A stretch of 64,000 bases of DNA, taken from a virus. Shown piece by piece: positions 19,455 through 56,522 of this stretch. Positions within the stretch are counted from its first letter, which is position 1, and every line of letters begins with the position of its first letter. Location: positions 8,693-72,692 of IMG/VR virus record IMGVR_UViG_3300036826_000261. The stretch is one strand, 5' to 3'. The notes below the pieces were generated by a model that was not told where the DNA came from, ran no database searches, and saw only the letters and a list, made by a program, of their open reading frames with translations. The position numbers and the translations under genes were made by a program.

Positions 19455-21023
19455 ATGCCTGTCTCATTTGCCAACATTCCTGCCAACATAAAGGTCCCAT
19501 TGTATTGGGTCGAAGTGGACCCTTCGATGGCGGGTCTGCCAAGTATCAATCTACGCGCACTGTTGGTTGGTATCAAGACCACCGCAGGCGCGGCGCCGGC
19601 AGATATTCCGCTGCCGATCGGCAGTCAGGCGCAAGCCGACGCTGCGTTCGGTCAGGGCAGCGAACTGTCCCGGATGTTCACTGCGTTCTACGCCAACAAT
19701 TTCGCCAACGAGGTATGGGGCTTGCCGGTGGCCGAACCGATCGGCGGTGTCGCGGCGAGCGGCACGATCACGTTCACGACGCCACCGACCGCAGCCGGCA
19801 CTGTCGATTTCTATATCGGCGGCGTGCATGTGCCGGTTAACGTGGCGACGACGGACACCGTGACCACGATGGCGGCGGCAACCGCAGCGGCGATCAACGC
19901 GATGGATGAGTTGCCGGTGACTGCGTCGGCGGCGGTTGGCGTGGTGACGTTGACTTGTCTGTGGAAGGGCATTCTCGGCAACGACATCACGGTGCAAATG
20001 AACTACTACGGCACGCGCGGCGGTGAAATCACACCGCCCGGGCTCGCCGTGACGCTGCCGGCGACCGGTCAGTTGGCCGGCGGCACCGGCACGCCGATCT
20101 TTACCAATGCAATCCTCAACATGGGTGAAGAACCGTTCGAGTATGTCGCGATGCCGTACACCGATTCGACGTCGTTGGCGGCGTGGAACCAGGAATACGG
20201 TTTCACAGATACTGGACGCTGGGGTTGGCAGCGGCAATTGTTCGGCCATGTGTTCTCGGCCAAGCGCGACACCTATTCCAATCTGATCACGTTCGGCGGC
20301 ACGGTGAACTCCGGTGTCGAGTCGATCATGGCGGTCGAAGTCAAGGCGCCGTCGCCGGTGTTCGAATGGACGGCGGCTTATGTGGCCAAGGCGCAGCGCG
20401 CTTTGATCAATGATCCGGCGCGACCGTTGCAGGCGCTGACTTTGAACGAGATCAAGGCCGCGACGATCAACAACCGGTTCAAGTTCTCCGAATTGAACTC
20501 GCTGGCGTCAACCGGGTTCGCGATCCAGAAGATCGGCGGTGATGGTCAGCCGATGATTGCGCGAGAGAACACGACTTATCAGCTCAATCTCTACGGCCAG
20601 CCGGACGATGCTTATGAGCTGGTCACCACGCTGGCGACGCTGGCCAAGCTGCTGCGCAATCAGCGGCAGGCGATCACCAGCAAGTATCCGCGGCACAAGC
20701 TGGCCAATGACGGCACCAAGTTCGGACCGGGTCAGGCGATCGTGACGCCGGGTATCATCAAGGGCGAGCTGGTCGCGCAGTACAGTCAGGACATGTTCTC
20801 CGGGCTGGTCGAAGACCTGACCAATTTCAAGGCGCATCTGATTGTCGAGCGCGATCCCGACAATCCGAACCGCGTCAACGTGCTGTACCCGCCCGATTTG
20901 GTCAATCAACTGCGCATCTTCGCCGTGCTGGCGCAATTCCGTCTGCAGTACGATCGTGGCGTAGACACCGCTATCATCGGACCGGCATCGCCGCCGTTCA
21001 ACGCCGCGTCGGGCAACCCATAA
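19455..21023 (+). CDS. contractile tail sheath protein (Mu gpL-like)
   Basis: MPVSF.NIP...KVPL, FGQGSELSRM, DPARPLQ, KYPRHKLA.DGT, VERD..NPNRVNVL.PPDLVNQLRIFA. Confidence 0.95.
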   Translation: MPVSFANIPANIKVPLYWVEVDPSMAGLPSINLRALLVGIKTTAGAAPADIPLPIGSQAQADAAFGQGSELSRMFTAFYANNFANEVWGLPVAEPIGGVAASGTITFTTPPTAAGTVDFYIGGVHVPVNVATTDTVTTMAAATAAAINAMDELPVTASAAVGVVTLTCLWKGILGNDITVQMNYYGTRGGEITPPGLAVTLPATGQLAGGTGTPIFTNAILNMGEEPFEYVAMPYTDSTSLAAWNQEYGFTDTGRWGWQRQLFGHVFSAKRDTYSNLITFGGTVNSGVESIMAVEVKAPSPVFEWTAAYVAKAQRALINDPARPLQALTLNEIKAATINNRFKFSELNSLASTGFAIQKIGGDGQPMIARENTTYQLNLYGQPDDAYELVTTLATLAKLLRNQRQAITSKYPRHKLANDGTKFGPGQAIVTPGIIKGELVAQYSQDMFSGLVEDLTNFKAHLIVERDPDNPNRVNVLYPPDLVNQLRIFAVLAQFRLQYDRGVDTAIIGPASPPFNAASGNP

Positions 21024-23233: not shown

Positions 23234-26200
23234 ATGGCTACTTATGTTTTTGTTGTCAGTGGCACGACGACCGGCGCACCGCCCGGTGATTATCAGGCCA
23301 CGGGCTCGACCTGGGACGTTATCGGCGGTGGTGGTTCGGGCGCAGTTGCCAGTGGTGGCGTGCAGCCGAATGCTGGTGGCGGTGGTGGTTGGTCGCAGAT
23401 CGTCAACGTCGCGTGGTCGTCGGCGCAGACCGTGCAAATCGGTCAAGGCGGCGCGGCGAAATCGACCACCAACACGGCCGGCGCGGCGGGCACCGCGACA
23501 TGGGCACGCATCGACGGTGGCGGCACCGCGCCTGCGACGACCGCGCAAGGCGTCTTAGCCAATCCCGGCAGTGGCGGCCTCGTCGGCAGCGGGACTGGCA
23601 CGGCCGGCGGTTCGGTCACCGGCGCAGTTGGCACCACGACGCGCGCGGGCGGCAATGCCGGCGCTGAAAATGATACATCGTACGCCGGTCCCGGCGCTGG
23701 CGGCGCAGCCGGTCCGGGCGGCGCGGGCGGCACGGGTGGCGCTGATTCGCAGAACGGTCCGTACGGCGGCTCAGCTGGCGGCGGCGCCAATGGCGGCGGC
23801 GGTGCAGGCGGCGCCACCACGGGCGGGCAAGTTGGCACCCAAGGCGGTGCGTCGATCTCGACCGGCAATCAGACCGGCGCATCGGGCGGCACCACCAATA
23901 CGGCGCCGACAGCCGCGAACGCGGGCAGCAATGGATCAGGCGGCGGCGGTGGCTCTGGTAGTACTTCGTCGGGCACGGCAGCCGGGCGCGGTGGCGACGG
24001 CGGCGCCGGCAAGGAATACGATTCGTCGCACGGCTCCGGCGGTGGCGGCGGATCGGGTGGCGGCAACACCGCAGGCGGCACCAACGGTCAAGGCGGCACC
24101 GGTGGTCTGTACGGCGGTGGTGGCGGCGCATCGGGCTCCGGCAGTTCGGGTCTCGGCACTTCCGGCGCAGGCGCGCAGGGTCTGCTCGCGATCACCTACA
24201 CGCCGAGCGGCGGGGCGCCGACGTGGGCCTTTGTCGGCGTCACAAGTGTCGTATCAGTTACAGCAGCAACGCACACGCTGAGCGAACCCGCAGGTGTGCA
24301 GCAGGGCGACTTGCTCGTTGCTGTGATTTCATCGCGTATTGCTTCCACGACATCGATCACCTTGCCATCTGGCTGGTCGCTGGTCGCTGAGGCAAAGAAC
24401 AATAACACGCTCACGACGTCGAGTGCCGCAGCATCCGGCATGATGGCGTACTGCGTGCGGGGCGCCTCGGCGCCAAGCTTTACTTTTACGCACCCGACTG
24501 CACCCAGTGTTGCGCTAGGCTATGTCGTTGCTTATCGCAACAACGATCCGAGCCCTTTGGACGTCCATACGGCTTGGACCACAGCGACGAACACGACAGC
24601 TGTTTCCGGCGCAGGCGTCACTACGGGTTTTGCTTCAGACCTGATCGTGGTTGGCACCTGTGGCGGTCAGGAGGCGACGTGGACAGCGTTGTCTGCGGCA
24701 ACCGATCCGTCCGGGGCTAGCGGCACTGGTGGCCAGACCGGAAACCCGGTGACGGGGTCTTGGCTGGAGCGCGCTGAAAACACTACTACGACCGGCGCCG
24801 ACACGTCGTTGGGAATCTTCGATGCGGTACGCGGCACGGCCGGCGCGACTGGCAATATATCGGTCACAGCCGGGACGGCTGCGGCGCATGTGCTCGTCAT
24901 TGGCGCCTTCAAGCTTGCGCCGCCCGCTGGCAATAACGGCGCGGCGGCGGGCACTGGTACTGCGAGCGCGGTCGGCACCGGGCTCAAGATCGCGCAGGGT
25001 GCCGCAGCGGGCACATCTACCGCGAGCGCGACCGGCAGTGGTGCGGGCAGCGGCCAAGGCGTCGCGAGCGGCACCGGTGCAGCGAGCGCGGTCGGCATCG
25101 GGCTCAAGATTGCGCAGGGTGCTGCAGCGGGCACATCTACCGCGAGCGCGACCGGCAGCGGCGGCGCTGTTGCTCCGGCTTTCGTGCAGCACGTTACGCC
25201 GAACGCGTTTCAAGGCGGCAGTTCTGCAAGTGCGACCGGCGCGGCGGTGGGCGTCGGCAATTGCGTCGTCGGCGCGGTGTCGTGGCAGCGCGCCGACACG
25301 CTCGATCTCACGTCGGTCACCGACGACAAGGGCAACACTTACACGATCGTGGATCGTGGAGGCGATCCAGGTAACGCACAGACTCACGTCACTTTCATTC
25401 TCTGGAATATCACCAACGGCCCTTCGACGATCACGGCGAACTTCAGCCAGTCTGAAGGCATCAACGACATCGTCTGGGATGAATATTCGGGAGTTCTGAC
25501 TACCGATCCGCGCGATGGTCACGCGATCAATCTGCAAAGTCCCGCCAGCAACACCACCGATGCGGCGACGTCGGGCAGCATTACGACCACCGTCGCCAAC
25601 GATCTGATCTGGTCGTCGATCGTTGATTGCCAAGGCTCCAGTCAGAACGGCTACGCGGCGGGCACCGGCTACACCAAGCGCGGCACGTTCTGGCTTTCTG
25701 GTTACGGCGCGACCGAAGACAAGACCCTGGCCACGCCGGGCAGTGTCGCCGGCACGTGGACGCTGACCACTTCGTCGGTTGTTGCGGTTGCGGTGATCGC
25801 GCTGAAGCCGGCTTTGCCGGCTGGTGCCGGCAGCGGTGCGGCTGCGGGCACCGGCGCCGCCAACGGCGTCGGACAATCGACGGCGGTGGCTGCCGGGTCG
25901 GCCGCCGGCACTTCGACCGCGAGCGCGACCGGCAGCGGAGCGAGCAACAGCACGGGGTCGAGCGCAGGCACCGGCGCAGCGAGCGGCGTCGGGCGCAGCA
26001 CATTCCTCGCCACGGCAGTCGCGACCGGCACGGGCGCGGCCTCGGCGACCGGGACTGCGGCAGCGGCCGGCACAGGCAATGCGTCGGGCGCGGGTGCAGC
26101 GTCCGCCACCGGGGCCGCCACGGTGGTGGCGACCGGCAGCACCGCCGGCACCAGCAGCGCGCAGGCGCAAGCCGCCGGGCAGGGCGCGACGTCCGGAACC

Positions 26201-27958
26201 GGCACGGCAACGGGCATTGGGCGGGCCACAGCCGCCGCTACAGCGGCGTCCGCCGCGACCGGCACCGCGACAGCCGCCGGCACCGGGATCGTCTCAGCGC
26301 CCGGCGCCGCTGCGGGAACAGGCGCTGCAGCGGCCACCGGGGCGGCGCTGTTCAGCGCCACCGGCAGCGCGGCGGGAACCGGTATTGCGCTGGGGGTGGC
26401 GCCGAGCCTTGGCAGCGCCACCGGCATCGGTGCGGCCAGCGCGGTCGGACAATCGACAGCGGCGGCGGTCGGCAGCGCGACGGCGACCGGCACCGCCACG
26501 GCGACCGGTACCGGCATCATCTTTTCGCCTGGGGCGGCGGCCGGCACCGGCGCGGCCAACGCCACCGGATCGGGCGTCGGCGTCACACAAGGCGCTGCCG
26601 CCGGCACCGGCGCGGCGTCCGGGGTCGGACAGTCTACAGCGGTTGCGACCGGATCGGCGGCGGGCGTCGGGGTCGCGTCAGGGGTCGGGCTCGCCAGTGC
26701 GCAGGGCGCTGCCGCCGGCCTCGGCGCGGCGTCCGGGATCGGGCGATCGACGGCGCTGGCGACCGGCAACGCGGCCGGCACAGGCACCGCGTCTGGAATT
26801 CAGCAAGGCACCTCGATCGCGGTTGCCGCCGGCACCGGGTCGGCACAGGCGCAAGCCGCTGGGCAAGGTGCCGCTGCCGGTCTCGGCGCGGCCAGCGCGA
26901 CCGGCCAAGCGACGGCGCGCAGCCCGGGCAATGCCGCCGGTACCGGCGCGGCACAGGCGCGAGCCGCCGGGCAAGGGGCGACGTCCGGCGTTGGAACGGC
27001 TTCTGGCATCGGCGCCAGCCTCGCCAGTGCGGTCGGCGCAGCGGCCGGCACTGGCACAGCGGCGGCGCAATCGTTGCAGGGTGGGCTCGGCAGCGCCGCC
27101 GGCACCGGTGTGGCGAGCGGCATCGGGCGATCGACGGCGGCAGCCGTCGGCAGTGCGGCTGGTCTCGGGTCGGCGGCGGCGGTCGCCAGCAGCCTGTCGA
27201 TTGGCGCGGCCACCGGCACCGGCGTGGCTTCGGCGGTTGGCGTCGGGGCGAGCAATTCGGTCGGCGCATCTGCCGGAGTCGGCAGCGCGGCGGCGCAATC
27301 GCTGCAGGGCACGGTCGGCGTTGCCGCCGGCACCGGGACGGCCACTGGCGCCGGGGCGGCGTTGGTTCGGCAGCCGGGCAGCGCGGCCGGGATCGGCGCA
27401 GCCAACGCGGTCGGCACCGGCATCTTTGTCGCGGTCGGGTTTAGCTCCGGTCTCGGCGGCGACACCGGCGAGGCGACGGCGCTGGCGTCGGCGCAAGGCC
27501 ATGCCGTCGGCACCAGCACGGCGACGGCGCCGGGCAGCGGGTTCGAGATCGGCGACGGCAGCGCCGCCGGTCACGGCGTCGCGACCGGTGTCGCCAAATC
27601 GGTCAATGCCGGCGTCGGCGCGGCGGCCGGGCTCGGCACGCTGCAGGCGGTGGCGCGGGTTATCGGTGCAGGCGTCGCGCAGGAAGCGTCCGATGTCGCC
27701 AATGGCGTCGCTTATTGGGTGCCGGAAGGCACCGCGCAGGAAGCGCCCGACACCGCGCACGGCACCAGCGGCAAGCGCTTCAGCGAGGATTTCATTGCCG
27801 AGATCGCGCCGCCGCCGGAGCTGGCGGGCGAGATCGAACCGACACCGGCGTTCACCGGGCGCAAGCGCTCGGCCGATCTGGTGGCGCAACTGTCCGCCGC
27901 GTCCGCGTTCACTGGGCGCACGCGCAACAGCCAAGATTTTATCGGACGCATGCCATGA
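23234..27958 (+). CDS. large Gly/Ala-rich virion fibre/decoration protein
   Basis: Polyglycine-rich N-terminus, two beta-rich modules, then more than 600 aa of GAAAGxGxA repeats. Confidence 0.8.
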   Translation: MATYVFVVSGTTTGAPPGDYQATGSTWDVIGGGGSGAVASGGVQPNAGGGGGWSQIVNVAWSSAQTVQIGQGGAAKSTTNTAGAAGTATWARIDGGGTAPATTAQGVLANPGSGGLVGSGTGTAGGSVTGAVGTTTRAGGNAGAENDTSYAGPGAGGAAGPGGAGGTGGADSQNGPYGGSAGGGANGGGGAGGATTGGQVGTQGGASISTGNQTGASGGTTNTAPTAANAGSNGSGGGGGSGSTSSGTAAGRGGDGGAGKEYDSSHGSGGGGGSGGGNTAGGTNGQGGTGGLYGGGGGASGSGSSGLGTSGAGAQGLLAITYTPSGGAPTWAFVGVTSVVSVTAATHTLSEPAGVQQGDLLVAVISSRIASTTSITLPSGWSLVAEAKNNNTLTTSSAAASGMMAYCVRGASAPSFTFTHPTAPSVALGYVVAYRNNDPSPLDVHTAWTTATNTTAVSGAGVTTGFASDLIVVGTCGGQEATWTALSAATDPSGASGTGGQTGNPVTGSWLERAENTTTTGADTSLGIFDAVRGTAGATGNISVTAGTAAAHVLVIGAFKLAPPAGNNGAAAGTGTASAVGTGLKIAQGAAAGTSTASATGSGAGSGQGVASGTGAASAVGIGLKIAQGAAAGTSTASATGSGGAVAPAFVQHVTPNAFQGGSSASATGAAVGVGNCVVGAVSWQRADTLDLTSVTDDKGNTYTIVDRGGDPGNAQTHVTFILWNITNGPSTITANFSQSEGINDIVWDEYSGVLTTDPRDGHAINLQSPASNTTDAATSGSITTTVANDLIWSSIVDCQGSSQNGYAAGTGYTKRGTFWLSGYGATEDKTLATPGSVAGTWTLTTSSVVAVAVIALKPALPAGAGSGAAAGTGAANGVGQSTAVAAGSAAGTSTASATGSGASNSTGSSAGTGAASGVGRSTFLATAVATGTGAASATGTAAAAGTGNASGAGAASATGAATVVATGSTAGTSSAQAQAAGQGATSGTGTATGIGRATAAATAASAATGTATAAGTGIVSAPGAAAGTGAAAATGAALFSATGSAAGTGIALGVAPSLGSATGIGAASAVGQSTAAAVGSATATGTATATGTGIIFSPGAAAGTGAANATGSGVGVTQGAAAGTGAASGVGQSTAVATGSAAGVGVASGVGLASAQGAAAGLGAASGIGRSTALATGNAAGTGTASGIQQGTSIAVAAGTGSAQAQAAGQGAAAGLGAASATGQATARSPGNAAGTGAAQARAAGQGATSGVGTASGIGASLASAVGAAAGTGTAAAQSLQGGLGSAAGTGVASGIGRSTAAAVGSAAGLGSAAAVASSLSIGAATGTGVASAVGVGASNSVGASAGVGSAAAQSLQGTVGVAAGTGTATGAGAALVRQPGSAAGIGAANAVGTGIFVAVGFSSGLGGDTGEATALASAQGHAVGTSTATAPGSGFEIGDGSAAGHGVATGVAKSVNAGVGAAAGLGTLQAVARVIGAGVAQEASDVANGVAYWVPEGTAQEAPDTAHGTSGKRFSEDFIAEIAPPPELAGEIEPTPAFTGRKRSADLVAQLSAASAFTGRTRNSQDFIGRMP

Positions 27959-28377
27959 ACCTTGTCGATCTGTTTGCAGGAGATGACTGGCAACTGAACT
28001 TCACGCTGCTCAACGCGGACGGCACGCCGTTCGATCTGACCGGCGGTCCGCAACTGCTGTGGACTTTGCTTAATCGGCTGAACCATCGGCTGATCGAATC
28101 CAACGAAGTCACTTACTCGATCACCAACGCGACTGCAGGTCAGTTCTCGGTATTGGTGCCGGCGATGATCACGACACGGCTGGCGGCGGCGATCTGCGAG
28201 CACGTGTTGCGGGTGATCTCCGGCGGTGTCGCCGCGACGCCATTCGCTGGACAGATCAACGTGCATGTCGATCCGTGGGCGGCGGCGCCGGCACCGTCGC
28301 AGAGCAACGTCGTCAACATGACGGCGAAGCTGCGTCGTGATCAGGATCGCGCGGCCGGCGAAGGGCGGGTCGGATGA
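27955..28377 (+). CDS. BppU-N-like Ig-fold adaptor
   Basis: GDDWQLNFTLLNADGTPFDLTG..TNATAGQFSV. Confidence 0.6.
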   Translation: MNLVDLFAGDDWQLNFTLLNADGTPFDLTGGPQLLWTLLNRLNHRLIESNEVTYSITNATAGQFSVLVPAMITTRLAAAICEHVLRVISGGVAATPFAGQINVHVDPWAAAPAPSQSNVVNMTAKLRRDQDRAAGEGRVG

Positions 28378-29183: not shown

Positions 29184-29371
29184 AAGGCGGCCTTGCTCCG
29201 AATCCGGAGGAAATGATTATCAACGCTTATCGGTTGGCGGATCGTTACAAACAAGACCCGATGACGTTTTTGCAGCAACCGTTGTCGCAAATAAACATGC
29301 ACGTTTACTACACGCTCAAACTGATCGAGTTGCAGAACGCGGCACGGGCGCGTGAGAATGAAGACGAGTGA
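29153..29371 (+). CDS. -1 frameshift extension of tail chaperone (gpGT/gpE'-like)
   Basis: C TTT TTT at 29153-29159; -1 frame open to 29371; alternative own ATG at 29213 with GGAGG. Confidence 0.6.
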   Translation, partial: LFSPGARSLLEGGLAPNPEEMIINAYRLADRYKQDPMTFLQQPLSQINMHVYYTLKLIELQNAARARENEDE

Positions 29372-29562
29372 AAAGCATGAAGGGTGACCCGTTCCCAGAT
29401 CACCCTTCACTTGTGCCGACCATGACGAGACCGGCCCGGCCAGACGGCGCCAAGGCCAAACCCCGACAAACCACGCCTGCCAAGTCTGGCTTTGCTTGGC
29501 CAAATCTTACCGCGCCAGACCTTGTCGCGCCGAACCGCGCCTGTCCTCGCCTGCCATGCCTA
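29372..29562 (-). ncRNA. stand-alone GGY-NN guide-like RNA (mini-array 2) with terminator
   Basis: Minus strand TAGGCAT GGCA, 14 pentamers, GGCA, then a second unit; stem TGAAGGGTGA/TCACCCTTCA followed by TGCTTTT. Confidence 0.8.
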
Positions 29563-29572
29563 AGAATTGGTG

Positions 29573-29601
29573 TAGGTAGTTTATTTGTTTGCGACTGTCA
29601 A
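29573..29601 (-). promoter_or_regulatory. sigma70-like promoter for mini-array 2
   Basis: TTGACA-N17-TACCTA on the minus strand, about 10 nt before TAGGCATGG. Confidence 0.65.
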
Positions 29602-29618
29602 GTTCGGGAATCGTTGTA

Positions 29619-32114
29619 ATGGCGACTGAACAAGAGCAACTGGAACTTGTCGTCACGCTTGATGATCAAGAAGCGCTGGCGAAGCTTGCCAATCTGAAAA
29701 ATCAACTGGCCAACATGGGGTCAGGGTCTTCGGGGTTTGGCAAGGTCGGTGAGAGTGTCGAGCGTGCAACCAAAGGCGTCAAGGATTTAAGCTTCGAGAT
29801 CGCCAAGGGCACGTTCTGGGGCAACATGTTTGCCGAGGCAGGCAAGGAAGTTCTCAAGTTCGGCGAAAAAGTTGTCGAGAGCGCGACGGACATCCAAGGG
29901 TTATCGAAATCGATCGTCGATCTTTCGACGACCGCTTCGCGCATGGGAACAAGTTTAGGTCAACTGCGCTCCAATCTGCGCGTGTTCGATGAAATGGGAG
30001 TCGATGCCGGCAAGGCCACTGCGACATTGCAGGGTTTGGCCGATTCGATGGGCGATCTGCAAACGATTAACGGTCGGCTGCGCGGTCAATTGCGCAGTGG
30101 CGGATTTCTCGAACTACAGGAGATGCTGAAGGTTCTGCAAGACGCTGACGAGGCGAAGACGGTCGAAGAGTTCGGCGAGACCATGCGCAAGGCCGCCGAG
30201 AAGGTGCGGGAGCGTTGGACCGATCTCGCCGGTCCTGAAAAAGGCGCAGAGATGCAGCGGCGGTTTCTGGCGTTGCTCAAGGCGCCGGAGCTGGATCAGC
30301 TCGAAGGCAAACTCGGCAAAATAAACAAACAACAAGATGAGTTTTCCAAAAGACAGGAAACCATTCTGAAGCAATTCTACGCGGCTAGTCGCGGTATGGC
30401 GGAAGGTCTTGAGCGCATCGGGCAAGCGATCGGCACGGTGGTTGCAGCGATGAATTTGCCGTGGATGCAGACATTGGCCGACACGTTCAAAGCTGGTGCG
30501 GAATACGCCGAACGCATTGCGCTGGCGCTGACCAAGTTGAATGTCACACCAACAGAGGCAAAAAGCGCGATCCAAGACACGTTCGGCAAGTTTGGTCTAG
30601 GTGTGCCGGCGCCGAGTTTCAACGAGCGTTTCGGGACATGGCCCGGTGCGACCGCGGCGCCGATGAAATTCATCGGCGGCAGTGTGCAGGGCGGTGAGTG
30701 GGACAGCCGCAATTTCACGGCCAGCGGCAACGATTTTTGGCGCAATCTGCAGGGTCGCGGCGACGTCGATATCGAAGACCGGCGCAATCTCGAAGATAAC
30801 ACCGATCAGACCAAACAGCTCACTGAGCAGATGCGCCAGCTCAATGATGCATTGACCAATCCGATGGCGACGGGACGTGGCGGCGGCTTGGCTGCGATGG
30901 GCGCAGCGCTCGGTCTCGGCGATCTCGGCGGTGGCGGTGGCGGCGGCGGTGGCGGCGGCGGCGGCGGTCGTGCGCGACCGTGGGCGCTACGCAGTCCGAG
31001 TGATGCGCCTTACGGCAATGATGCTGGACCCGGCACCGGCAAGGGTGCCGGTGAATCCCCTGCGGCCATGGGTGCCCCACCGGGTCCCGGCGGTCCTGGT
31101 GGCATTACGGCGCCGGCCGGGACGCCGATCATGCGCGGCGGCACTACAACGGTGACGACGGCGAGCGGGCACAAGTTTCAGGTTGCTGCCGCCTACGCGA
31201 AAAATTTCCAGGGCTTCATCAACGATTACGAAGCGGCTGGCGGTGTCATCGGTCCCAATTCCGGCACGCTTGGCAGTCGGCCGAGCAATGCATCTGGACA
31301 TCCGATCGGTACGGCGTTCGATCTCAATCAAGTCGCGCGCAACGTTCGCAAGGGTGGCGTATCGCTGCCGCAGGAGCAAGAGGAAGCGCTGGCGAAAAAA
31401 TGGGGTCTTGTCTCGGGCAGCCAGTGGCGCAATCCCGATGCCGGACATTTCGGCATTCGCAGCGCCAAGGCAGCGCGCGACGCGTTGATCGCCAATGGCG
31501 TGCCGGAGGGTGAAGCCAACAAGATCGTCGGCGGTGCCGCCAGCGGCGGGGCGGTCGGCGGCAGTGCCGGTGATGCCGCCAAGGTTAGGGGCTCATGGTT
31601 CGGCAACGCACCGGGTTGGCATGACCCATCCGAGCCGGTGGATAGTCCGAAGAGCAATCGGCCCGGCATTGCGTTGCCGTCCAAAGCGACGCTTGGTCAG
31701 ATGTTCGAGGTGACGACGCCGGACGGTCGCAAATTTATGTTGCCGCAAACCGATGTCGGACCGGCAGCGCGCACCGGGCGCGGCGTTGATATCACGGCGG
31801 CAGCGGCGGCGAGGATGGGTTATACCGCGAAGAATTTTCCGACCGATGAACGCTTCATGGTGCAGCCGGCGTCCAAAAGCATGGACGCAGCGATTGCCCG
31901 TGGCGCGGAGCTGGATAAGGAGCGCGAAACGACGGTGACCGGCAAAGGCCATTTGAAAGTCGATATCAATGGCCCACCCGGCACGCGAGCGAGCGCGACG
32001 GGCGAAGGGCTGCTGAAAGACACCTCGATTTCGCGTGCGACGCAGATGGCGCCGGCCAGCTCCGGGCCGACCAATCCGGCCGGCGACACGCCGTACGTGT
32101 TCGGCGGGACTTAA
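29619..32114 (+). CDS. tape measure protein with M15-like peptidase and DPBB/RlpA-like domains
   Basis: Helical N-terminal half; SGHPIGTAFD..KWGL..G..W..PDAGHF; GSWFG..IALP..DVGP..GRGVDIT. Confidence 0.8.
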   Translation: MATEQEQLELVVTLDDQEALAKLANLKNQLANMGSGSSGFGKVGESVERATKGVKDLSFEIAKGTFWGNMFAEAGKEVLKFGEKVVESATDIQGLSKSIVDLSTTASRMGTSLGQLRSNLRVFDEMGVDAGKATATLQGLADSMGDLQTINGRLRGQLRSGGFLELQEMLKVLQDADEAKTVEEFGETMRKAAEKVRERWTDLAGPEKGAEMQRRFLALLKAPELDQLEGKLGKINKQQDEFSKRQETILKQFYAASRGMAEGLERIGQAIGTVVAAMNLPWMQTLADTFKAGAEYAERIALALTKLNVTPTEAKSAIQDTFGKFGLGVPAPSFNERFGTWPGATAAPMKFIGGSVQGGEWDSRNFTASGNDFWRNLQGRGDVDIEDRRNLEDNTDQTKQLTEQMRQLNDALTNPMATGRGGGLAAMGAALGLGDLGGGGGGGGGGGGGGRARPWALRSPSDAPYGNDAGPGTGKGAGESPAAMGAPPGPGGPGGITAPAGTPIMRGGTTTVTTASGHKFQVAAAYAKNFQGFINDYEAAGGVIGPNSGTLGSRPSNASGHPIGTAFDLNQVARNVRKGGVSLPQEQEEALAKKWGLVSGSQWRNPDAGHFGIRSAKAARDALIANGVPEGEANKIVGGAASGGAVGGSAGDAAKVRGSWFGNAPGWHDPSEPVDSPKSNRPGIALPSKATLGQMFEVTTPDGRKFMLPQTDVGPAARTGRGVDITAAAAARMGYTAKNFPTDERFMVQPASKSMDAAIARGAELDKERETTVTGKGHLKVDINGPPGTRASATGEGLLKDTSISRATQMAPASSGPTNPAGDTPYVFGGT

Positions 32115-52565: not shown

Positions 52566-52670
52566 GCCTGCACGATGTTTTTGCCGGCGAAAAATTTTCT
52601 TGACTTTTCGCCAAACCCGTCGCTCGCTTCCCGGATTCGTAAAATCAAAATGCTAAAGGGAGAGAAGCAA

Positions 52671-53549
52671 ATGGCGAAAAAGGCACCCGTCAGTGAAATC
52701 ATCGAAATCCAAGCTATCGAAATGGCGTCGCTGGATTTCCATGTGGTCGGCACCAGCCCGTTCATCATGCATCGCTTCAGTCAGAAGGCGTGGCAGGAAT
52801 TGCTGCTGCCGTCGATCCGCGAAAACCGCGCTAGTCTCGAACAGAAGCTCAAGCATGATCCGTATGCAGAATTTCGTGGCGCGTTCTATCGCAACAGCAA
52901 TCCGCGCGCCAAGACGGCGTACCATATTCCAAACGGCGCGTTTCACGGCGCGATCGCCAGCGCCGCGCTCGACATGCCGGGTGCCAAGAAGGCGCAGATC
53001 GAGCGGTTGACCAAGATCACCAGCGTCAACATCGAACTGTATGGCATCCCGAAAATCTTTTGCAGCATGGTGCGTAACAGCGACATCTCGCGCACGCCAG
53101 ATGTGCGCACCCGGCCGATCTTCCCGCGCTGGGCGTGCACGGTTTCGGTGCGCTACGCGAAGAACGCGTTGACGGCCAAAGCCGTCGCCAATCTGTTCGG
53201 CGCGGCGGGCGAGATCATCGGCATCGGTGATTGGCGCGGTCAGAAGGGCGGACCGTTCGGCGCGTTCCGCACCAACGTGTCGGTGAACGATAAAGAGTTC
53301 AAGAGCATCTTGAAGGAAGGCCGCGTCGCGCAATTGAAAGCTTACGACAAACCGTTGTTCTACGATGAAGACACGGAAGAAATTTTAACGTGGTTCGCCA
53401 CCGAGGTGCGCCGCCGTGAGTTGGAAGGCAAGATGCGCAGCGATAACGTCAAGGAGTTTCGCGTTATCACCGAGCGCGGCAAGGAGCGCGGCAACGGCGA
53501 GTTGGTGAGCCTTGACGACAAGCGGCGGACCCGTCGAAAGGCCGCGTGA
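52671..53549 (+). CDS. stand-alone Cas7/RAMP-like RNA-binding protein (Vipr-like effector)
   Basis: VVGTSPFIMH first strand, IP..AF..AI..A, R.RP.FP.W, and C-terminal Gly-rich loop GIGDWR..KGGPFGAF typical of RAMP-fold proteins; no other cas genes in the window. Confidence 0.75.
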   Translation: MAKKAPVSEIIEIQAIEMASLDFHVVGTSPFIMHRFSQKAWQELLLPSIRENRASLEQKLKHDPYAEFRGAFYRNSNPRAKTAYHIPNGAFHGAIASAALDMPGAKKAQIERLTKITSVNIELYGIPKIFCSMVRNSDISRTPDVRTRPIFPRWACTVSVRYAKNALTAKAVANLFGAAGEIIGIGDWRGQKGGPFGAFRTNVSVNDKEFKSILKEGRVAQLKAYDKPLFYDEDTEEILTWFATEVRRRELEGKMRSDNVKEFRVITERGKERGNGELVSLDDKRRTRRKAA

Positions 53550-54043
53550 TGGCGAAAGCCACCAAACACGACCGCATCAAAGCGGCGTTGGAAGCGATCA
53601 GGCGCTCGCATCGCGGGCGCTTGACGGCGCGGGCCGTGGTCGAGGCGGCCAAAAATCCTAGGCACCCGTTGCACAGTGAATTTGAATGGAACAACCAGAA
53701 AGCAGCGGATCAGCAACGCTTGGAGCGTGCGCGCGAACTAATCAGATACGTCACGGTCGTGGTCGTTGATGCAACGCGTAAAGTCGAAACACGATTTTAT
53801 GCGCACGATCCGCGAACGCCGCATCGTGAAGGCTATGTCAGCATCTTGGAGATGAACCGCCGCGATGCTGAACAAGATGTGGTCAACGCTATCGCGATCT
53901 GTCAATCGACGATCGATCGCGCGCTCAGCAAAGCGGAATTTCTCAGCGCGAAGCATCGTGGTGTTTCACGATTGTTGAAAAATGCAGTTGCTACCCTTGC
54001 CGCCGCGCATGATCTGCTCGAAGGCTCGGCGGCAGCGGCGTGA
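53549..54043 (+). CDS. accessory protein coupled to the RAMP-like gene
   Basis: LT..AVVEAA..P.HPLH..FEW....AA...RL..AR.LIR motif; start overlaps the RAMP stop. Confidence 0.7.
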   Translation: MAKATKHDRIKAALEAIRRSHRGRLTARAVVEAAKNPRHPLHSEFEWNNQKAADQQRLERARELIRYVTVVVVDATRKVETRFYAHDPRTPHREGYVSILEMNRRDAEQDVVNAIAICQSTIDRALSKAEFLSAKHRGVSRLLKNAVATLAAAHDLLEGSAAAA

Positions 54044-54048
54044 AGTCA

Positions 54049-54269
54049 TAGGCATGGCAGGCTAGGCAAGGTGCGGCCCGGCCGGAGTAGGTTCGGTGCG
54101 GCAAGGCAGGCATGGCCCGGGAGACGCGGTGAAGCGTGTCCGTGATCTGGTAGCGTCGGGTAAGGCGGCGTTGGATGGGGTGAGGCGAGGCAGGCTTGGT
54201 CAGGTCTGACGAGACTGGGCGCGGTAGGTTTTGGCGCGGTACGGCAAGGCGTGATGCGGTAAGGCAGGC
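54049..54269 (+). ncRNA. GGY-NN pentamer array, block 1 (3 units)
   Basis: Starts TAGGCATGGCA; GGCA separators at 54056, 54105, 54189, 54263 (spacings 49/84/74 = 5n+4). Confidence 0.85.
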
Positions 54270-54527
54270 ATGGCCAGAAACACAGCGGATAAGGTTCTCG
54301 AAAACAAGTTGCGGCTGATCGCCAAACGGCGGGGTTTGTTTCTTTCGAAATCCCGTCGTCGCGATCCGTTTGCGCTCGACTTTGGTTATGAGTTGAGAGA
54401 CGCGCAACAGCACGTCATCGAAACAGCGTGCAGTCTTACTCGAATCGAAAACTTGTTAGCTCTCGGTCGGACGGGGCGGAAACGTTTAACAGTCGAAGGA
54501 TGGCGTCACATCATCCTTGGTAAGTAG
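54270..54527 (+). CDS. small basic protein embedded in the array
   Basis: ENKLRLIAKRRGL.L.KSRRRDP.ALDFGY; non-repetitive, lower-GC insert. Confidence 0.65.
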   Translation: MARNTADKVLENKLRLIAKRRGLFLSKSRRRDPFALDFGYELRDAQQHVIETACSLTRIENLLALGRTGRKRLTVEGWRHIILGK

Positions 54528-56488
54528 GCATGGCAGGCGTGGCCGGGCCGGGTTGTCCCCGGTGTGGCAGAGCATGGCAGCGCAGGGTTGACATGGCAGG
54601 GCAGGCAGGGTCCGTCGTGGTCGCGCGGGATTGGGCGGGGCAAGGCACGGCACGATGCTGGTCTGGCGAGGCGTGGCAGGCATGGCTGGATCAGGCGTGA
54701 CGAAGCTTGGTGTAGCTAGGCCGGGTGCAGTGTAGGCATGGCGAGGCAGGCGCGGCGGGACAAGGTCCGATATGGCGTGGCGCGGTCTGGTTCGGTCTGG
54801 CCGGGTTTGGCAGGCAAGGTGCGTCGAGGCCAAACATGGTGTGACAAGGTACGGCGCGGCCTGATCTGGGCTCGACTGGGCAGGCGCGGTGGGTTCTGGC
54901 TCGACATGGTTAGGCGAGGCCCGGTGATGCCCGGCATGTTGAAGTGCGTCCTGGCAGGCGTGGCGGGGGTGCGTGCGAGGCGGGACCGGGCAAGGTCGGG
55001 CACGTTATATGGTCTGGCTGGGCACGGCTTGGCGGGTCACGGCAAGGCACGGCCGGCAAGGTTTGTCCGGAACCGGTTTGGCTTGGCGAGATGCGATTAG
55101 GCGAGGCGAAGCGAGGCCGGCTAAGCGTGACTTGGTCGGGTAGACGTGGCCGGGCACGGTAGCGGCGTGGATCGGCCGGCGACGCTAGGCTTGTCGTCGA
55201 TCGGCATGACATGGCGCGGCACGGCGAGGCGTGGTTCGGCCGGCGCGATTAGGTGTGGTCGGAATCGGCATGGCTCGGTGTCGCGTGGTCTGGCGTGGCT
55301 CGGCTGGGCCGGCTGGCGGGATTTGGCTTGATGCGGTCAGGCAAGGTCCGGCCCGGATCGGCGCGGCATGGCCGGCGTGGTCTGGCTTGAAGTGGTTGGG
55401 ATTAGGCGTGGCGCGGTATGACGCGGTGAGGCAGGCGGGGAGTGGCTAGACGTGGCTGCGCGCAACAAGGTCGGTCAAGTCCTGGTTTAGGCGTGGTGTG
55501 ACGCTGTGAGGCAGGCAAGGCCCGGACGGGCAAGACCGGATTAGGCATGGCGATGCTGGGCCGGCGGGGCACGGTGGAGGCCCGGACGGGCACGGCCGGG
55601 CAAGGCGTGGCAATGCAAGGCAGGCAAGACTTGGCAGGGCGCGGCCCGGCGAGAAATGGTTTGGCGCGGCGCGGCAGGCATGGCAGGGCGATACATGGTC
55701 AGGCGAAGCACGGCACAGCAGGGCAGGCGGGACTGGGTGTTCTGGGCACGGCTGGGCACGGCCGAAGCATGGCCGGCGAGGCTTGTCCTGGCACGGCGGG
55801 GCTGAGGCGTGGCAGCGTTTAGGCGCGGCCGGCGAGGCTTGTCCTGATTCGGCGGGGCTCGGCTTAGGCGCGGCCGGGTCGGTCACGGCAAGGCAGGCAC
55901 GGCTAGGCGTGGCAGGGAGCGGCAACGCCGGGTCGGGCGTGGCTGGGCTAGGCGACGGCGAGGCGAGGCGTGGTGCGGCAGGCGCGGCATGACAAGGCGC
56001 TGTGAGACCCGGCTTGGCAGGGTGCGGTACGGCATGGCTCGGCAGCGCTAGGCTTGGCAGGCACAGGTGATGCGGCGCGCGACAAGGCGGGACAGGGCGA
56101 GGCCGGCGCGGCATGAAAAGGCGCGGCGCGTTCGGGTGCAGCGCGGCGGGGTTGCGGCAAGGCACGGCTCGGCAGGACCGGCGGGGCTGGGCGTGTCTGG
56201 GCACGGCTCGGCGCGGCACGGCACGGTCCGGCAACGCCGGCAGCGCTGGGCGAGACATGGCATGGCTTGGCGGGGCTGGACACGGTGAGGCGAGGCAGGC
56301 GCGATCTGGCGTGGTTTGGCGTGGCGGGGCGAGGTACGAGCTGGGCGAGGCGAGGCAGGCGTGGTCGGGCGCAACGCGATGTGGTGTGACTGGTCGCGGC
56401 TCGCTGCGGTACGGCCCGGCAGGCGGGACTGGGCGTTGCTGGATCAGGTTCGGCCCGGCATGGCTAGGCGTGGCAGGCGGCGCAGGCG
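54525..56488 (+). ncRNA. GGY-NN pentamer array, block 2 (about 30 units)
   Basis: Continuous 5-nt periodicity of GG(C/T)NN with GGCA/GGCC tetramer separators about every 45-85 nt; only low-complexity spurious ORFs. Confidence 0.9.
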
Positions 56489-56522
56489 CTGATTATCCGT
56501 TAGAAAAAAGGAATCCCAACTG

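What the first reader, a model, noticed from the sequence alone, without database searches (positions are those of the whole stretch)
55726..56471. Three independent guides decode to the JAB/MPN HxHP motif: possible silencing of host defence genes
Units 55726-55770 (I-R-V-Q-V-H-T-H-P), 56175-56234 (L-G-V-V-A-D-V-H-T-H-P-G) and 56422-56471 (T-Y-I-G-E-W-H-T-H-P) all decode antisense to the HTHP metal-binding motif. Established: prokaryotic JAB domains occur in type II CBASS (Cap3) and other ubiquitin-like anti-phage operons, and also in some phage tail-tip genes. Inference: programmable anti-defence by repression of such operons. I see no JAB gene in this window.
Basis: inference. Interest (0 to 1): 0.88.

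Follow-up and report, generated by a model that had tools for sequence, protein, structure and literature searches.

The report
Phage VIPR guides against CBASS and Bil
Two of the three flagged repeat units are guide RNAs of a phage VIPR system that spell, codon by codon, the catalytic motif of the Cap3 and BilC proteins of two bacterial anti-phage systems, so the phage probably aims RNA-guided gene silencing at bacterial immunity.

Summary
The stretch lies in a 2.4 kb staggered vrRNA array (GGYNN pentamers) downstream of vipr and vap in a 72.7 kb phage. The system, VIPR, was described in three 2026 preprints.

- **Guide C (56422-56471):** under the published 1-nt-skip rule it reads TYIGEWHTHP. 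Its full pattern has 29 exact matches in genome contigs. All 29 are in codon phase inside CBASS-type JAB (Cap3) genes, and 18 of 24 upstream neighbours are Cap2.
- **Guide B (56175-56234):** it reads (F/L)GVVADVHTHPG. Of 122 ORFs hit by its truncated cores, 107 are BilC of the Bil defence system. Full-guide matches reach 23/24.
- **Guide A (55726-55770):** it needs two compensating 1-nt slips and has no JAB target in anything searched.

New here:
- A fourth guide (55315-55369) spells the patatin DGG..NNP motif of the CBASS effector CapV.
- In four capV-cdn-cap2(-cap3) operons this guide and guide C both match at 85% or more.
- Five of 21 related VIPR loci carry an opposite-strand guide to the same Cap3 motif. 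Four of these match real cap3 genes 20/20 and one 19/20.

Target identity is well supported. Silencing, and any benefit to the phage, are inferred. The host is unknown. Defence genes are not among the VIPR targets named in the texts I could read. This scan noted a similar reading on another phage (e1-6119725).

The parts
52575..53549 (+). vipr: RAMP (Cas7-like) protein, 324 aa
   Evidence: No Pfam family; phrog_4652 of unknown function. A profile of 18 clade members hits PDB 36pp_D 'SUSP1 Vipr protein' at E 1.5e-5 over the GVGDWRP G-loop. The AF2 model (pLDDT 74.8) has Cmr4, Csm3 and Cas7-11 as top Foldseek hits at prob 1.0.
53546..54043 (+). vap-like accessory gene, 165 aa; its start overlaps the vipr stop
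   Evidence: ORF list. No Pfam family; phrog_15946 of unknown function. I call it vap by position only.
54050..56490 (+). Staggered vrRNA array: about 390 GGYNN pentamers in about 40 phase-consistent runs, split by 4-nt slips (GGCA/GGCC)
   Evidence: Periodicity, Viterbi parse, GC skew 0.29, no Rfam family. It matches the 'staggered arrays with overlapping vrRNAs' of 10.64898/2026.04.26.720920 (legend of Fig. S18).
54270..54527 (+). 85-aa ORF in a 260-nt non-repeat island inside the array
   Evidence: No Pfam or PHROG hit. Function unknown.
55315..55369 (+). Guide 'DGG' (11 pentamers): reads [IM]-A-[DE]-G-G-[FL]-[CW]-A-[KN]-[KN]-P, the patatin DGG..NNP motif of the CBASS effector CapV
   Evidence: With up to 3 mismatches it hits 16 of 301 genomes; the control pattern hits 0 of 301. 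12 of the 16 are patatin motifs. 10 of the 12 fetched regions have a PADLOC cyclase next to the phospholipase.
55726..55770 (+). Unit A: 45 nt between a GGCA and a GGCC delimiter. The first three pentamers read P-H-T; the rest is out of register by two compensating 1-nt slips
   Evidence: No JAB target found.
56175..56234 (+). Guide B (12 pentamers), antisense to (F/L)GVVADVHTHPG, the JAMM motif of BilC
56422..56471 (+). Guide C (10 pentamers), antisense to TYIGEWHTHP, the JAMM motif of CBASS Cap3

Best explanation
Units B and C are vrRNA guides of a phage-borne VIPR system with a staggered array.

In the published mechanism, Vipr protomers each bind one GGYNN pentamer. The NN dinucleotides pair with double-stranded DNA, skipping every third base. 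Here those dinucleotides are written against the first two letters of 10-12 consecutive codons around the JAMM metal-binding motif (H-T-H-P). Guide C matches cap3 of type II CBASS. Guide B matches bilC of the Bil ubiquitin-like system.

The wobble base is skipped and the motif is nearly invariant, so one guide covers homologues across many taxa. A further guide in the same array covers the catalytic DGG motif of capV, the first gene of many of the same CBASS operons.

The most likely function is that the Vipr-vrRNA filament binds these sites and blocks transcription of the defence operon. At capV it would block the whole operon. At bilC it would block bilC and the E1 gene bilD behind it. At cap3 it would block the deconjugase only. 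This would weaken CBASS and Bil immunity in cells the phage infects or resides in.

Shown here: the guide structure, the target identity and its statistical weight, convergence of two guides on one operon, and recurrence in related phages. Inferred: vrRNA expression and processing, binding, silencing, and benefit to the phage. Unit A is most likely a decayed or frame-slipped relative of these guides.
For: System:
- GGYNN periodicity and staggered parse.
- Vipr is a RAMP fold with sequence similarity to SUSP1 Vipr.
- The 1-nt-skip rule and silencing from either strand are published.

Guide C:
- 29 exact matches of a 20-base-specified pattern in genome contigs. My arithmetic for 596 Gb, both strands and uniform composition gives about 1 by chance.
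- 29 of 29 are in codon phase in JAB ORFs reading TY[IM]G[ED]WHTHP.
- H, H, S and D of the JAMM motif are invariant.
- 29 of 29 match PADLOC CBASS JAB models. 18 of 24 upstream ORFs match CBASS E1-E2.

Guide B:
- 104 of the 129 have a JAMM motif in phase.
- The 104 score 20 to 23 of 24 against the full guide: 3 at 23, 46 at 22, 53 at 21 and 2 at 20.
- 107 of the 122 ORFs of 60 aa or more are BilC at E<=1e-10.
- L060 is BilA-B-C-D. L030 has BilA, BilB and BilC, followed by an ORF I did not scan.
- With up to 3 mismatches, 1 of 401 genomes of the order of G001 has a hit, and it is a bilC. The control pattern had 0.

Convergence on one operon:
- The DGG guide hits capV at 19-20 of 22 and guide C hits cap3 at 17 of 20 in the same operons L198, L203, L206 and L208.
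- For L203 and L206, PADLOC confirmed phospholipase, cyclase, E1-E2 and JAB. For L198 and L208 it confirmed only cyclase and E1-E2. The phospholipase and cap3 calls there rest on ORF size and motif, and L208 ends at the contig edge.

Recurrence in related phages:
- 5 of 21 related VIPR loci (Vipr 45-47% identical) carry a guide on the vipr strand that spells the motif in the opposite (sense) orientation. L169, L171, L173 and L174 read HYVG[DE]WHTHP; L172 reads HY[IM]G[DE]WHTHP.
- L169, L171, L173 and L174 match cap3 of L198, L206 and L208 at 20 of 20. L172 matches at 19 of 20.

Function of the targets:
Against: - No experiment or RNA data exists for this phage.
- The host is unknown. Near-perfect targets are rare in the one order I sampled. 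With up to 2 mismatches, guide C hit 4 of 301 genomes. Only 2 of these are JAB genes, and one of the two is the genome the sample was centred on. Guide B hit 1 of 401.
- cap3 lies downstream of cap2 at the 3' end of its operon. A block there spares cyclase, effector and Cap2. In print Cap3 is a deconjugase whose loss is not uniformly harmful to defence.
- Transcriptional silencing cannot remove defence proteins already present at infection. The genome has no tyrosine integrase, so long-term residence as a prophage is not evident.
- Guide A fails every target search.
- Exact patterns of B, C and the DGG guide have 0 hits in viral contigs. This fits cellular targets but gives no direct link to this phage's ecology.
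- PADLOC model names come from automatic family building, not from tested functions of these particular genes.
Confidence: 0.62

Rival explanations
1. The targets are the same genes, but the purpose is competition between mobile elements. CBASS and Bil operons ride on islands, prophages or satellites that compete with this phage. The guides would be aimed at those elements, as published VIPR guides are aimed at satellites and prophages. Host immunity as such would not be the target.
For: - Published natural targets are satellites, prophage regulators and other VIPR systems.
- Other guides of this array were read by earlier notes as aimed at integrase motifs and at rival vipr (I did not test this).
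- Of 63 ORFs flanking ten CBASS loci, 2 are tyrosine integrases, 1 a resolvase, 1 a DDE transposase and 1 a VapE-like protein. Type I restriction and GmrSD genes are also present.
- One of the 9 viral-contig hits of the guide B core is a JAMM gene in phase (L037).
Against: - The guides sit on the defence genes themselves, on three different defence gene families. They do not sit on replication, excision or regulatory genes of an element.
- Exact patterns of C, B and DGG have 0 hits in viral contigs.
- No phage structural family is among the top 25 flank families.
- The outcome, loss of a defence system, would be the same, so this is a nuance more than a true alternative.
Confidence: 0.2
2. The guides boost immunity instead of blunting it. 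Silencing the deconjugases Cap3 and BilC, which reverse the activating conjugation, would leave CBASS or Bil hyper-primed. A resident VIPR phage would thereby exclude superinfecting rivals.
For: - Cap3 reverses Cap2-dependent cGAS conjugation (PMC10097602 passages).
- cap3 is the last gene of the operon, so a block there leaves the rest expressed.
Against: - The same array holds a guide against capV, the killing effector and first gene of the operon. That switches the system off.
- A block in bilC would also stop the E1 gene bilD behind it.
- In one studied system, deconjugation by Cap3 is proposed as the step that releases the cyclase for activation (PMC11153139, abstract).
- No tyrosine integrase is present in a genome CheckV rates 98% complete.
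Confidence: 0.07
3. The guides aim at JAB/MPN domains of other phages' tail-tip proteins (lambda gpK-like). That would be ordinary inter-phage warfare.
For: From recall only: lambda-type tail protein K carries an MPN/JAB domain. No call supports this reading.
Against: - 29 of 29 exact hits of C and 107 of 122 ORFs hit by B fall in CBASS JAB and BilC models.
- Their neighbours are E1-E2, cyclase, BilA, BilB and BilD, not tail genes.
- In viral contigs, C has 0 exact hits. The B core has 9 hits, of which one is a JAMM gene.
Confidence: 0.03
4. The HTHP readings are a chance by-product of a low-complexity G-rich repeat.
For: - The NN alphabet is biased.
- Each dinucleotide allows several residues.
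- Unit A needs slips to fit.
Against: - 0 of 5000 shuffles reach the observed runs.
- There are 29 exact in-phase hits against about 1 expected.
- Control patterns had 0 hits in the pattern searches, each over 301 to 401 genomes.
- Related phages carry perfect guides to the same motif on the other strand.
Confidence: 0.02

Closest known systems
VIPR systems (Vipr + vap + vrRNA); type II of Escherichia phage SUSP1 and a Pseudomonas fulva prophage; 'staggered' arrays (bioRxiv 10.64898/2026.04.26.720920, 10.64898/2026.04.26.720927, 10.64898/2026.10.15.759431)
   Same: - RAMP protein next to a small accessory gene, followed by GGY/NN pentamer RNA genes.
- 1-nt-skip matches fall in codon phase on conserved coding sequence.
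- Several guides converge on one locus.
- Guides occur against either strand.
- Phage-borne.
   Different: - Vipr is only distantly related to SUSP1 Vipr (E 1.5e-5 over 47 residues).
- The array is about 40 back-to-back units without the 3' pseudoknot tail of type II.
- The targets found here are bacterial defence genes (cap3, bilC, capV). The texts I read name satellites, prophage regulators, other VIPR loci and REP decoys instead.
- I could not see data S3 of the first paper, which lists natural targets.
Phage-encoded CRISPR-Cas aimed at a host defence island (Vibrio phage ICP1 against PLE); recalled, no call
   Same: A phage carries an RNA-guided system whose guides match an anti-phage element of the host.
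   Different: - ICP1 uses contiguous spacers acquired from one specific element, and it destroys the DNA.
- Here the guides are gapped and written on protein motifs, so they cover divergent homologues. The published action of this system type is binding and silencing, not cutting.
Protein anti-CBASS factors of phages (Acb1, Acb2/Vs.4 type nucleotide degraders or sponges); recalled. Vs.4 is only named in a Methods passage of PMC10097602
   Same: They are counter-defence against CBASS carried by a phage.
   Different: They act on the signalling nucleotide after the system fires. The mechanism proposed here would act on the DNA of the operon before or during expression, and it can be reprogrammed by changing dinucleotides.
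CRISPRi (dCas9 or Cascade roadblock)
   Same: Guide-directed DNA binding without cleavage represses transcription. The VIPR authors make this comparison themselves.
   Different: CRISPRi is a laboratory tool with contiguous pairing and a PAM. VIPR has no PAM and works on either strand.

Membership tests
VIPR system | [quoted passage not shown] | tested here: met
   - Profile A4 hits PDB 36pp_D 'SUSP1 Vipr protein' at E 1.5e-5, aligned over the GVGDWRP loop. The single sequence gives E 0.0046.
- AF2 model pLDDT 74.8. The top 20 Foldseek PDB hits are Cas7-family RAMPs at prob about 1.0, with TM only 0.3-0.57.
VIPR system | vrRNA made of tandem GGY/NN (YNNGG) pentamers, at least 4 units | tested here: met
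   Period-5 autocorrelation. Parse into about 390 pentamers. Guides B and C have 12 and 10 units.
VIPR system | Targets obey the 1-nt-skip rule (NNx) at >=80% NN identity, mostly in codon phase | tested here: met
   - C: 20/20 in 29 genomes, all in phase.
- B: 20-23 of 24 in 104 JAMM genes.
- I did not test other skip lengths.
VIPR system | vipr-accessory gene (vap1-6) next to vipr | tested here: inconclusive
   A 165-aa gene overlaps the vipr stop. It has no Pfam family and only phrog_15946 of unknown function. I did not compare it with the published vap families.
VIPR system | Staggered array: neighbouring vrRNAs overlap by 1 nt | tested here: inconclusive
   The DNA shows 4-nt GGCA/GGCC steps between pentamer runs, giving units of 5n+4. 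This fits the legend of Fig. S18. Processing sites cannot be seen without RNA data.
VIPR system | vrRNA expressed, bound by Vipr, silences the target | not testable with these tools
   No RNA run was listed. No experiment exists.
Type II CBASS (target of guide C and the DGG guide) | Operon with CD-NTase cyclase, effector, Cap2 (E1-E2) and Cap3 (JAB) | tested here: met
   - L203 and L206: PADLOC finds phospholipase, cyclase, E1-E2 and JAB in this order.
- L198 and L208: PADLOC finds cyclase and E1-E2.
- Among the 29 exact-hit loci: 29 of 29 JAB and 18 of 24 E1-E2 upstream. Only 5 cyclases were seen among 73 further ORFs, because the loci were not centred on the hit.
Bil (bacterial ISG15-like) defence system (target of guide B) | bilA (Ubl), bilB (E2), bilC (JAB), bilD (E1) in one operon | tested here: met
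   - L060: BilA 1e-57, BilB 2e-60, BilC 2e-62, BilD 3e-170.
- L030: BilA, BilB and BilC.
- 107 of 122 hit ORFs are BilC.
- In 6 of 8 loci with long flanks, a 460-492 aa ORF follows the JAB gene.
JAB/MPN+ (JAMM) metalloprotease | H-x-H-x(7-10)-S-x-x-D metal site | tested here: met
   - Cap3 set: H94, H96, S104 and D107 are invariant in 29 sequences.
- BilC set: the consensus VVADVHTHPG...QSxSD has A, V, T, P and G invariant, and both H at 90% or more.
- Pfam Prok-JAB falls just below its cut-off for two BilC proteins.
Phage tail-tip protein K type JAB (considered) | JAB domain inside a tail module, fused to or next to NlpC/P60 | tested here: not met
   The hit genes are 150-200 aa stand-alone proteins or E1-E2-JAB fusions. 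Their neighbours are E1-E2, cyclase or Bil genes.

The most novel reading that the evidence does not exclude
Phage VIPR arrays double as a multiplexed, programmable counter-defence. Guides are written on the most conserved catalytic motifs of immune genes: cap3 and capV of CBASS, and bilC of Bil. They read only the first two letters of each codon. One 50-60 nt guide can therefore silence the same defence system across genera or even phyla, and synonymous change cannot escape it. This would be the first RNA-guided anti-defence that works at the level of protein motifs. It recurs in related soil phages with guides to either DNA strand.
Probability: 0.5. Interest if true: 0.85.

Novelty: new variant of a known kind. 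Interest (0 to 1): 0.78.

Why it matters
VIPR was described in 2026 as a weapon of phages against satellites, prophages and each other. If some guides are aimed at CBASS and Bil, phages have an RNA-programmed way to switch off bacterial immunity. That is a new class of counter-defence beside protein inhibitors and nucleotide sponges.

It would also show how the gapped code is used in nature. Writing guides on invariant catalytic motifs gives breadth across taxa. Guide C matches 29 species-level genomes exactly, from Rhizobiaceae to Bacteroidota.

The claim is directly testable with reporter and plaque assays in laboratory strains. Guide repertoires could also be read as a record of which defence systems a phage lineage meets.

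Tried and rejected
- **My first reading** was a protein-binding repeat with a chance decoding (stated). I dropped it once earlier notes named VIPR and the papers gave the decoding rule.
- **Rfam** at gathering threshold gave 0 families. ARAGORN found 0 tRNAs.
- **Megablast** of 24 kb of the phage against 'phages' found no match. tblastn of Vipr there found only distant hits in Gordonia, Mycobacterium, cyanophage and Pseudomonas phages.
- **Exact full patterns in viral contigs:** C, B, A in the slipped reading, and DGG each had 0 hits. Full B had 0 hits in metagenome contigs.
- **Guide A:**
  - 0 of 251 genomes of the class of G001 with up to 1 mismatch.
  - No site at 15/18 or better in the 180 loci then held.
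  - Its 16-base core hit 17 viral contigs; none is a JAMM gene.
  - The fixed-register readings gave nothing above background in the own genome.
- **B-like or DGG-like guides in the 21 related loci:** none found. L160 has a 13/14 core match but only 15/20 on real targets, so I did not count it.
- **All other array units** were scanned against the first 30 loci. Only B, C and unit 55315-55369 rose above the shuffled-guide maximum.
- **Host:** not determined. The tail sheath (phrog_165) has homologues of 57% and 45% identity in 2 of 121 genomes of the order of G001, and 10 of 121 at E<=1e-30. That is a weak pointer to Hyphomicrobiales. I did not sample other orders for comparison.
- **RNA evidence:** no RNA holder was listed.
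- **Literature:** no paper in the library holds both 'vrRNA' and 'CBASS'.
  - 'JAB', 'MPN', 'CBASS' and 'anti-defense' have 0 occurrences in 10.64898/2026.04.26.720920 and 10.64898/2026.10.15.759431.
  - 'defense' has 0 occurrences in 10.64898/2026.04.26.720927.
Data S3 of the first paper, the list of natural targets, may bear on the novelty claim.

**What I saw of each paper:**
- 10.64898/2026.04.26.720920: abstract, Results (both parts), Methods sections 20 and 27, and passages.
- 10.64898/2026.10.15.759431: abstract, section 17, and passages.
- 10.64898/2026.04.26.720927: start of the abstract and passages.
- PMC10097602: passages.
- PMC11153139: abstract.
- 10.1101/2023.09.04.556158: start of the abstract in a search listing only.
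Full report
**What is there**

The flagged units lie in window 54050-56490 (+). This stretch is non-coding, G-rich (GC skew 0.29) and has a strict 5-nt periodicity of GG. A phase-tracking parse splits it into about 40 runs of GGYNN pentamers, separated by 4-nt steps that are mostly GGCA or GGCC. It follows two overlapping genes, 52575-53549 and 53546-54043. The window is most of a 72.7 kb virus record that CheckV rates 98% complete.

Earlier notes of this scan named the system VIPR, and I checked that myself. The first VIPR preprint (10.64898/2026.04.26.720920; Results read) describes:
- phage-borne loci with a RAMP protein (Vipr), an accessory gene (vap) and vrRNAs of alternating GGY/NN;
- NN dinucleotides that pair with double-stranded DNA while skipping one base per unit;
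- natural sites that lie mostly in codon phase with the skipped base at the wobble position;
- silencing that works from either strand.

The same paper mentions 'staggered arrays' whose vrRNAs overlap by 1 nt.

The window's 324-aa protein has no Pfam family. A profile of it and 17 relatives hits the PDB chain 'SUSP1 Vipr protein' at E 1.5e-5 over the GVGDWRP loop. Its AlphaFold model has Cas7-family RAMPs as best structural matches. I therefore accept the locus as a VIPR system with a staggered array.

**The observation**

Units B (56175-56234) and C (56422-56471) are clean runs of 12 and 10 pentamers. Under the 1-nt-skip rule they read antisense as (F/L)GVVA(D/E)V(H/Q)T(H/Q)PG and TY(I/M)G(D/E)(W/C)(H/Q)T(H/Q)P.

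Unit A (55726-55770) shares only the first three pentamers (P-H-T). [quoted passage not shown]

The shared block is not chance. GG-TG-GT-TG occurs twice against 0.004 expected. GG-TG-GT occurs three times against 0.096 expected. No shuffle out of 5000 reached either count.

**Guide C targets cap3 of CBASS**

The full pattern has 20 specified bases and 29 exact matches in genome contigs. I expect about one by chance.
- All 29 lie in codon phase in ORFs reading TY[IM]G[ED]WHTHP followed by the S..D of the JAMM site.
- All 29 match PADLOC's CBASS JAB models.
- 18 of 24 ORFs directly upstream match the CBASS E1-E2 (Cap2) models.
- At least six of the 29 are fusion genes of about 610-770 aa with the JAB domain at the C-terminus.

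By record title the hits come from 5 Ensifer/Sinorhizobium, 2 Mesorhizobium, 2 Methylobacterium/Methylorubrum, 4 Rhodobacterales, 5 Gammaproteobacteria, 3 Bacteroidota, 2 Planctomycetota and six others.

In a sample of 301 genomes of the order of Sinorhizobium saheli, 4 have a site with up to 2 mismatches. Two of these are JAB genes, one of them in the centre genome itself. The control pattern has none.

**Guide B targets bilC of Bil**

The full pattern has no exact hit in viral or metagenome contigs.

With up to 3 mismatches, one of 401 genomes has a site (control 0). It reads LEVLADVHTHPG inside an operon whose first three genes are BilA, BilB and BilC.

- 104 of the 129 hits have the JAMM motif in phase.
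- Their consensus is L-x-VVADVHTHPG-xxx-QSxSD.
- They score 20-23 of 24 against the whole guide.
- Of the 122 hits with an ORF of 60 aa or more (7 dropped), 107 are BilC at E<=1e-10.

L060 is a complete BilA-BilB-BilC-BilD operon. In 6 of 8 loci with long flanks, a BilD-sized ORF follows the JAB gene.

**Guide A**

I found no JAB target for the slipped reading:
- 0 exact hits in viral contigs;
- 0 of 251 genomes with up to 1 mismatch;
- nothing at 15/18 or better in 180 loci;
- 17 viral hits for its core, none of them a JAMM gene.

I read it as a decayed or frame-slipped relative of the other two.

**Beyond the finding: a fourth guide and two guides on one operon**

I scanned every array unit against the first 30 target loci. 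One more unit rose above its shuffled null. It is 55315-55369, which reads [IM]A[DE]GG[FL][CW]A[KN][KN]P. This is the catalytic DGG..NNP motif of patatin-like phospholipases. It matched the capV-like genes of two CBASS loci already found through guide C.

With up to 3 mismatches it hits 16 of 301 genomes, against 0 for the control.
- 12 of the 16 read x-x-DGG-x-[WC]-ANNP.
- In 10 of the 12 regions I fetched, the phospholipase sits next to a PADLOC cyclase.
- Four of them (L198, L203, L206, L208) have the capV-cdn-cap2(-cap3) layout.
- In these four, guide C also matches cap3 at 17/20 (HYVG[ED]WHTHP or NYLGEWHSHP).

So two guides of one array meet the published 80% criterion on the first and last gene of the same operon.

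**Beyond the finding: recurrence in related phages**

Among 21 related VIPR loci from viral contigs (Vipr 37-65% identical), five carry a guide on the vipr strand that spells the motif in the sense direction. These are L169, L171, L172, L173 and L174. Three of them have the identical guide sequence.
- L169, L171, L173 and L174 read H-Y-V-G-[DE]-W-H-T-H-P. L172 reads H-Y-[IM]-G-[DE]-W-H-T-H-P.
- Their guides therefore pair with the other DNA strand than guide C does.
- Four match cap3 of L198, L206 and L208 at 20/20; L172 matches at 19/20.

The same motif attacked from both strands in diverged phages argues for selection on this target.

**How it most likely works, and what is weak**

By analogy with the published systems, Vipr filaments loaded with these guides would bind the operons and block transcription.
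- A block in capV would be polar on the whole operon.
- A block in bilC would also stop bilD.
- A block in cap3, the last gene, would remove only the deconjugase.

[quoted passage not shown] In one system it is proposed to release the cyclase for activation (PMC11153139, abstract). Silencing cap3 could therefore help a phage, but this is not assured.

Further weaknesses:
- There is no RNA or experimental evidence.
- The host is unknown. The only pointer is tail-sheath homologues of up to 57% identity in the same bacterial order.
- Near-perfect targets are rare in that order.
- Silencing cannot remove proteins made before infection.
- No tyrosine integrase is present.

Some CBASS flanks carry HTH and Peptidase_M78 gene pairs. 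From recall, CapH/CapP regulators of this kind induce CBASS on DNA damage. If so, blocking induced transcription would matter.

The flanks also hold restriction genes, 2 integrases, a resolvase and a transposase among 63 ORFs. The operons thus sit in defence or mobile islands. This keeps open the reading that rival elements, and not the host as such, are the target.

**Comparison and novelty**

The system is a member of the VIPR kind. What differs is the target class. The texts I could read name satellites, prophage regulators, other VIPR loci, REP decoys and, for the chromosomal types III and V, viruses. None mentions JAB, CBASS or anti-defence.

A follow-up note of this scan reached a similar reading on another soil phage (e1-6119725). 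I did not test that one.

I rate this a new variant of a known kind. Target identity is very likely. The anti-defence function is probable but unproven.

Noticed in passing
window 55315-55369: A further guide of the array spells the patatin DGG..NNP motif and matches capV effector genes of CBASS. This includes operons whose cap3 is matched by guide C.
   Followed up: yes
L169:4830-4896, L171:2740-2806, L172:4175-4241, L173:1910-1975, L174:3233-3299 (approximate, + strand): Related VIPR loci carry a sense-orientation guide to the same Cap3 motif (HYVG[DE]WHTHP; HY[IM]G[DE]WHTHP in L172), about 500-650 nt downstream of vipr. Four match real cap3 genes 20/20 and L172 matches 19/20. L160 has a weaker look-alike (13/14 on the core) just upstream of its vipr.
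   Followed up: yes
window 54270-54527: An 85-aa ORF in a 260-nt non-repeat island interrupts the array. It has no Pfam or PHROG hit.
   Followed up: partly
window 29300-29800 (- strand): There is a second, short stretch with period-5 CC signal next to the tape measure gene. Earlier notes call it a solo guide.
   Followed up: no
L060:3099-6533: The Bil operon is preceded by a 1145-aa gene that combines Peptidase_M78, UvrD helicase and PD-(D/E)XK nuclease domains. A gene of about 1136-1145 aa sits at the same place in L113 and L101.
   Followed up: partly
flanks of L198-L208: HTH (4 of 63 ORFs) and Peptidase_M78 (3 of 63) genes lie beside CBASS operons, together with type I restriction, GmrSD, VapE-like, integrase, resolvase and transposase genes. 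This is a defence-island or mobile context.
   Followed up: partly
window 26001-28000: GC rises to 0.78 and 0.73 inside a 1574-aa ORF (23234-27958), far above the phage mean of about 0.62.
   Followed up: no
G000 (whole 72.7 kb record): No tyrosine integrase (PF00589) is found in a genome rated 98% complete. The tail sheath (19455-21023) marks a myovirus.
   Followed up: partly
L218, L220, L223, L224, L229, L230, L231: Seven viral contigs share a short conserved frame reading ..CRVQVQTQPNRL.. at the chance hits of the guide A core. I do not know what it is.
   Followed up: no
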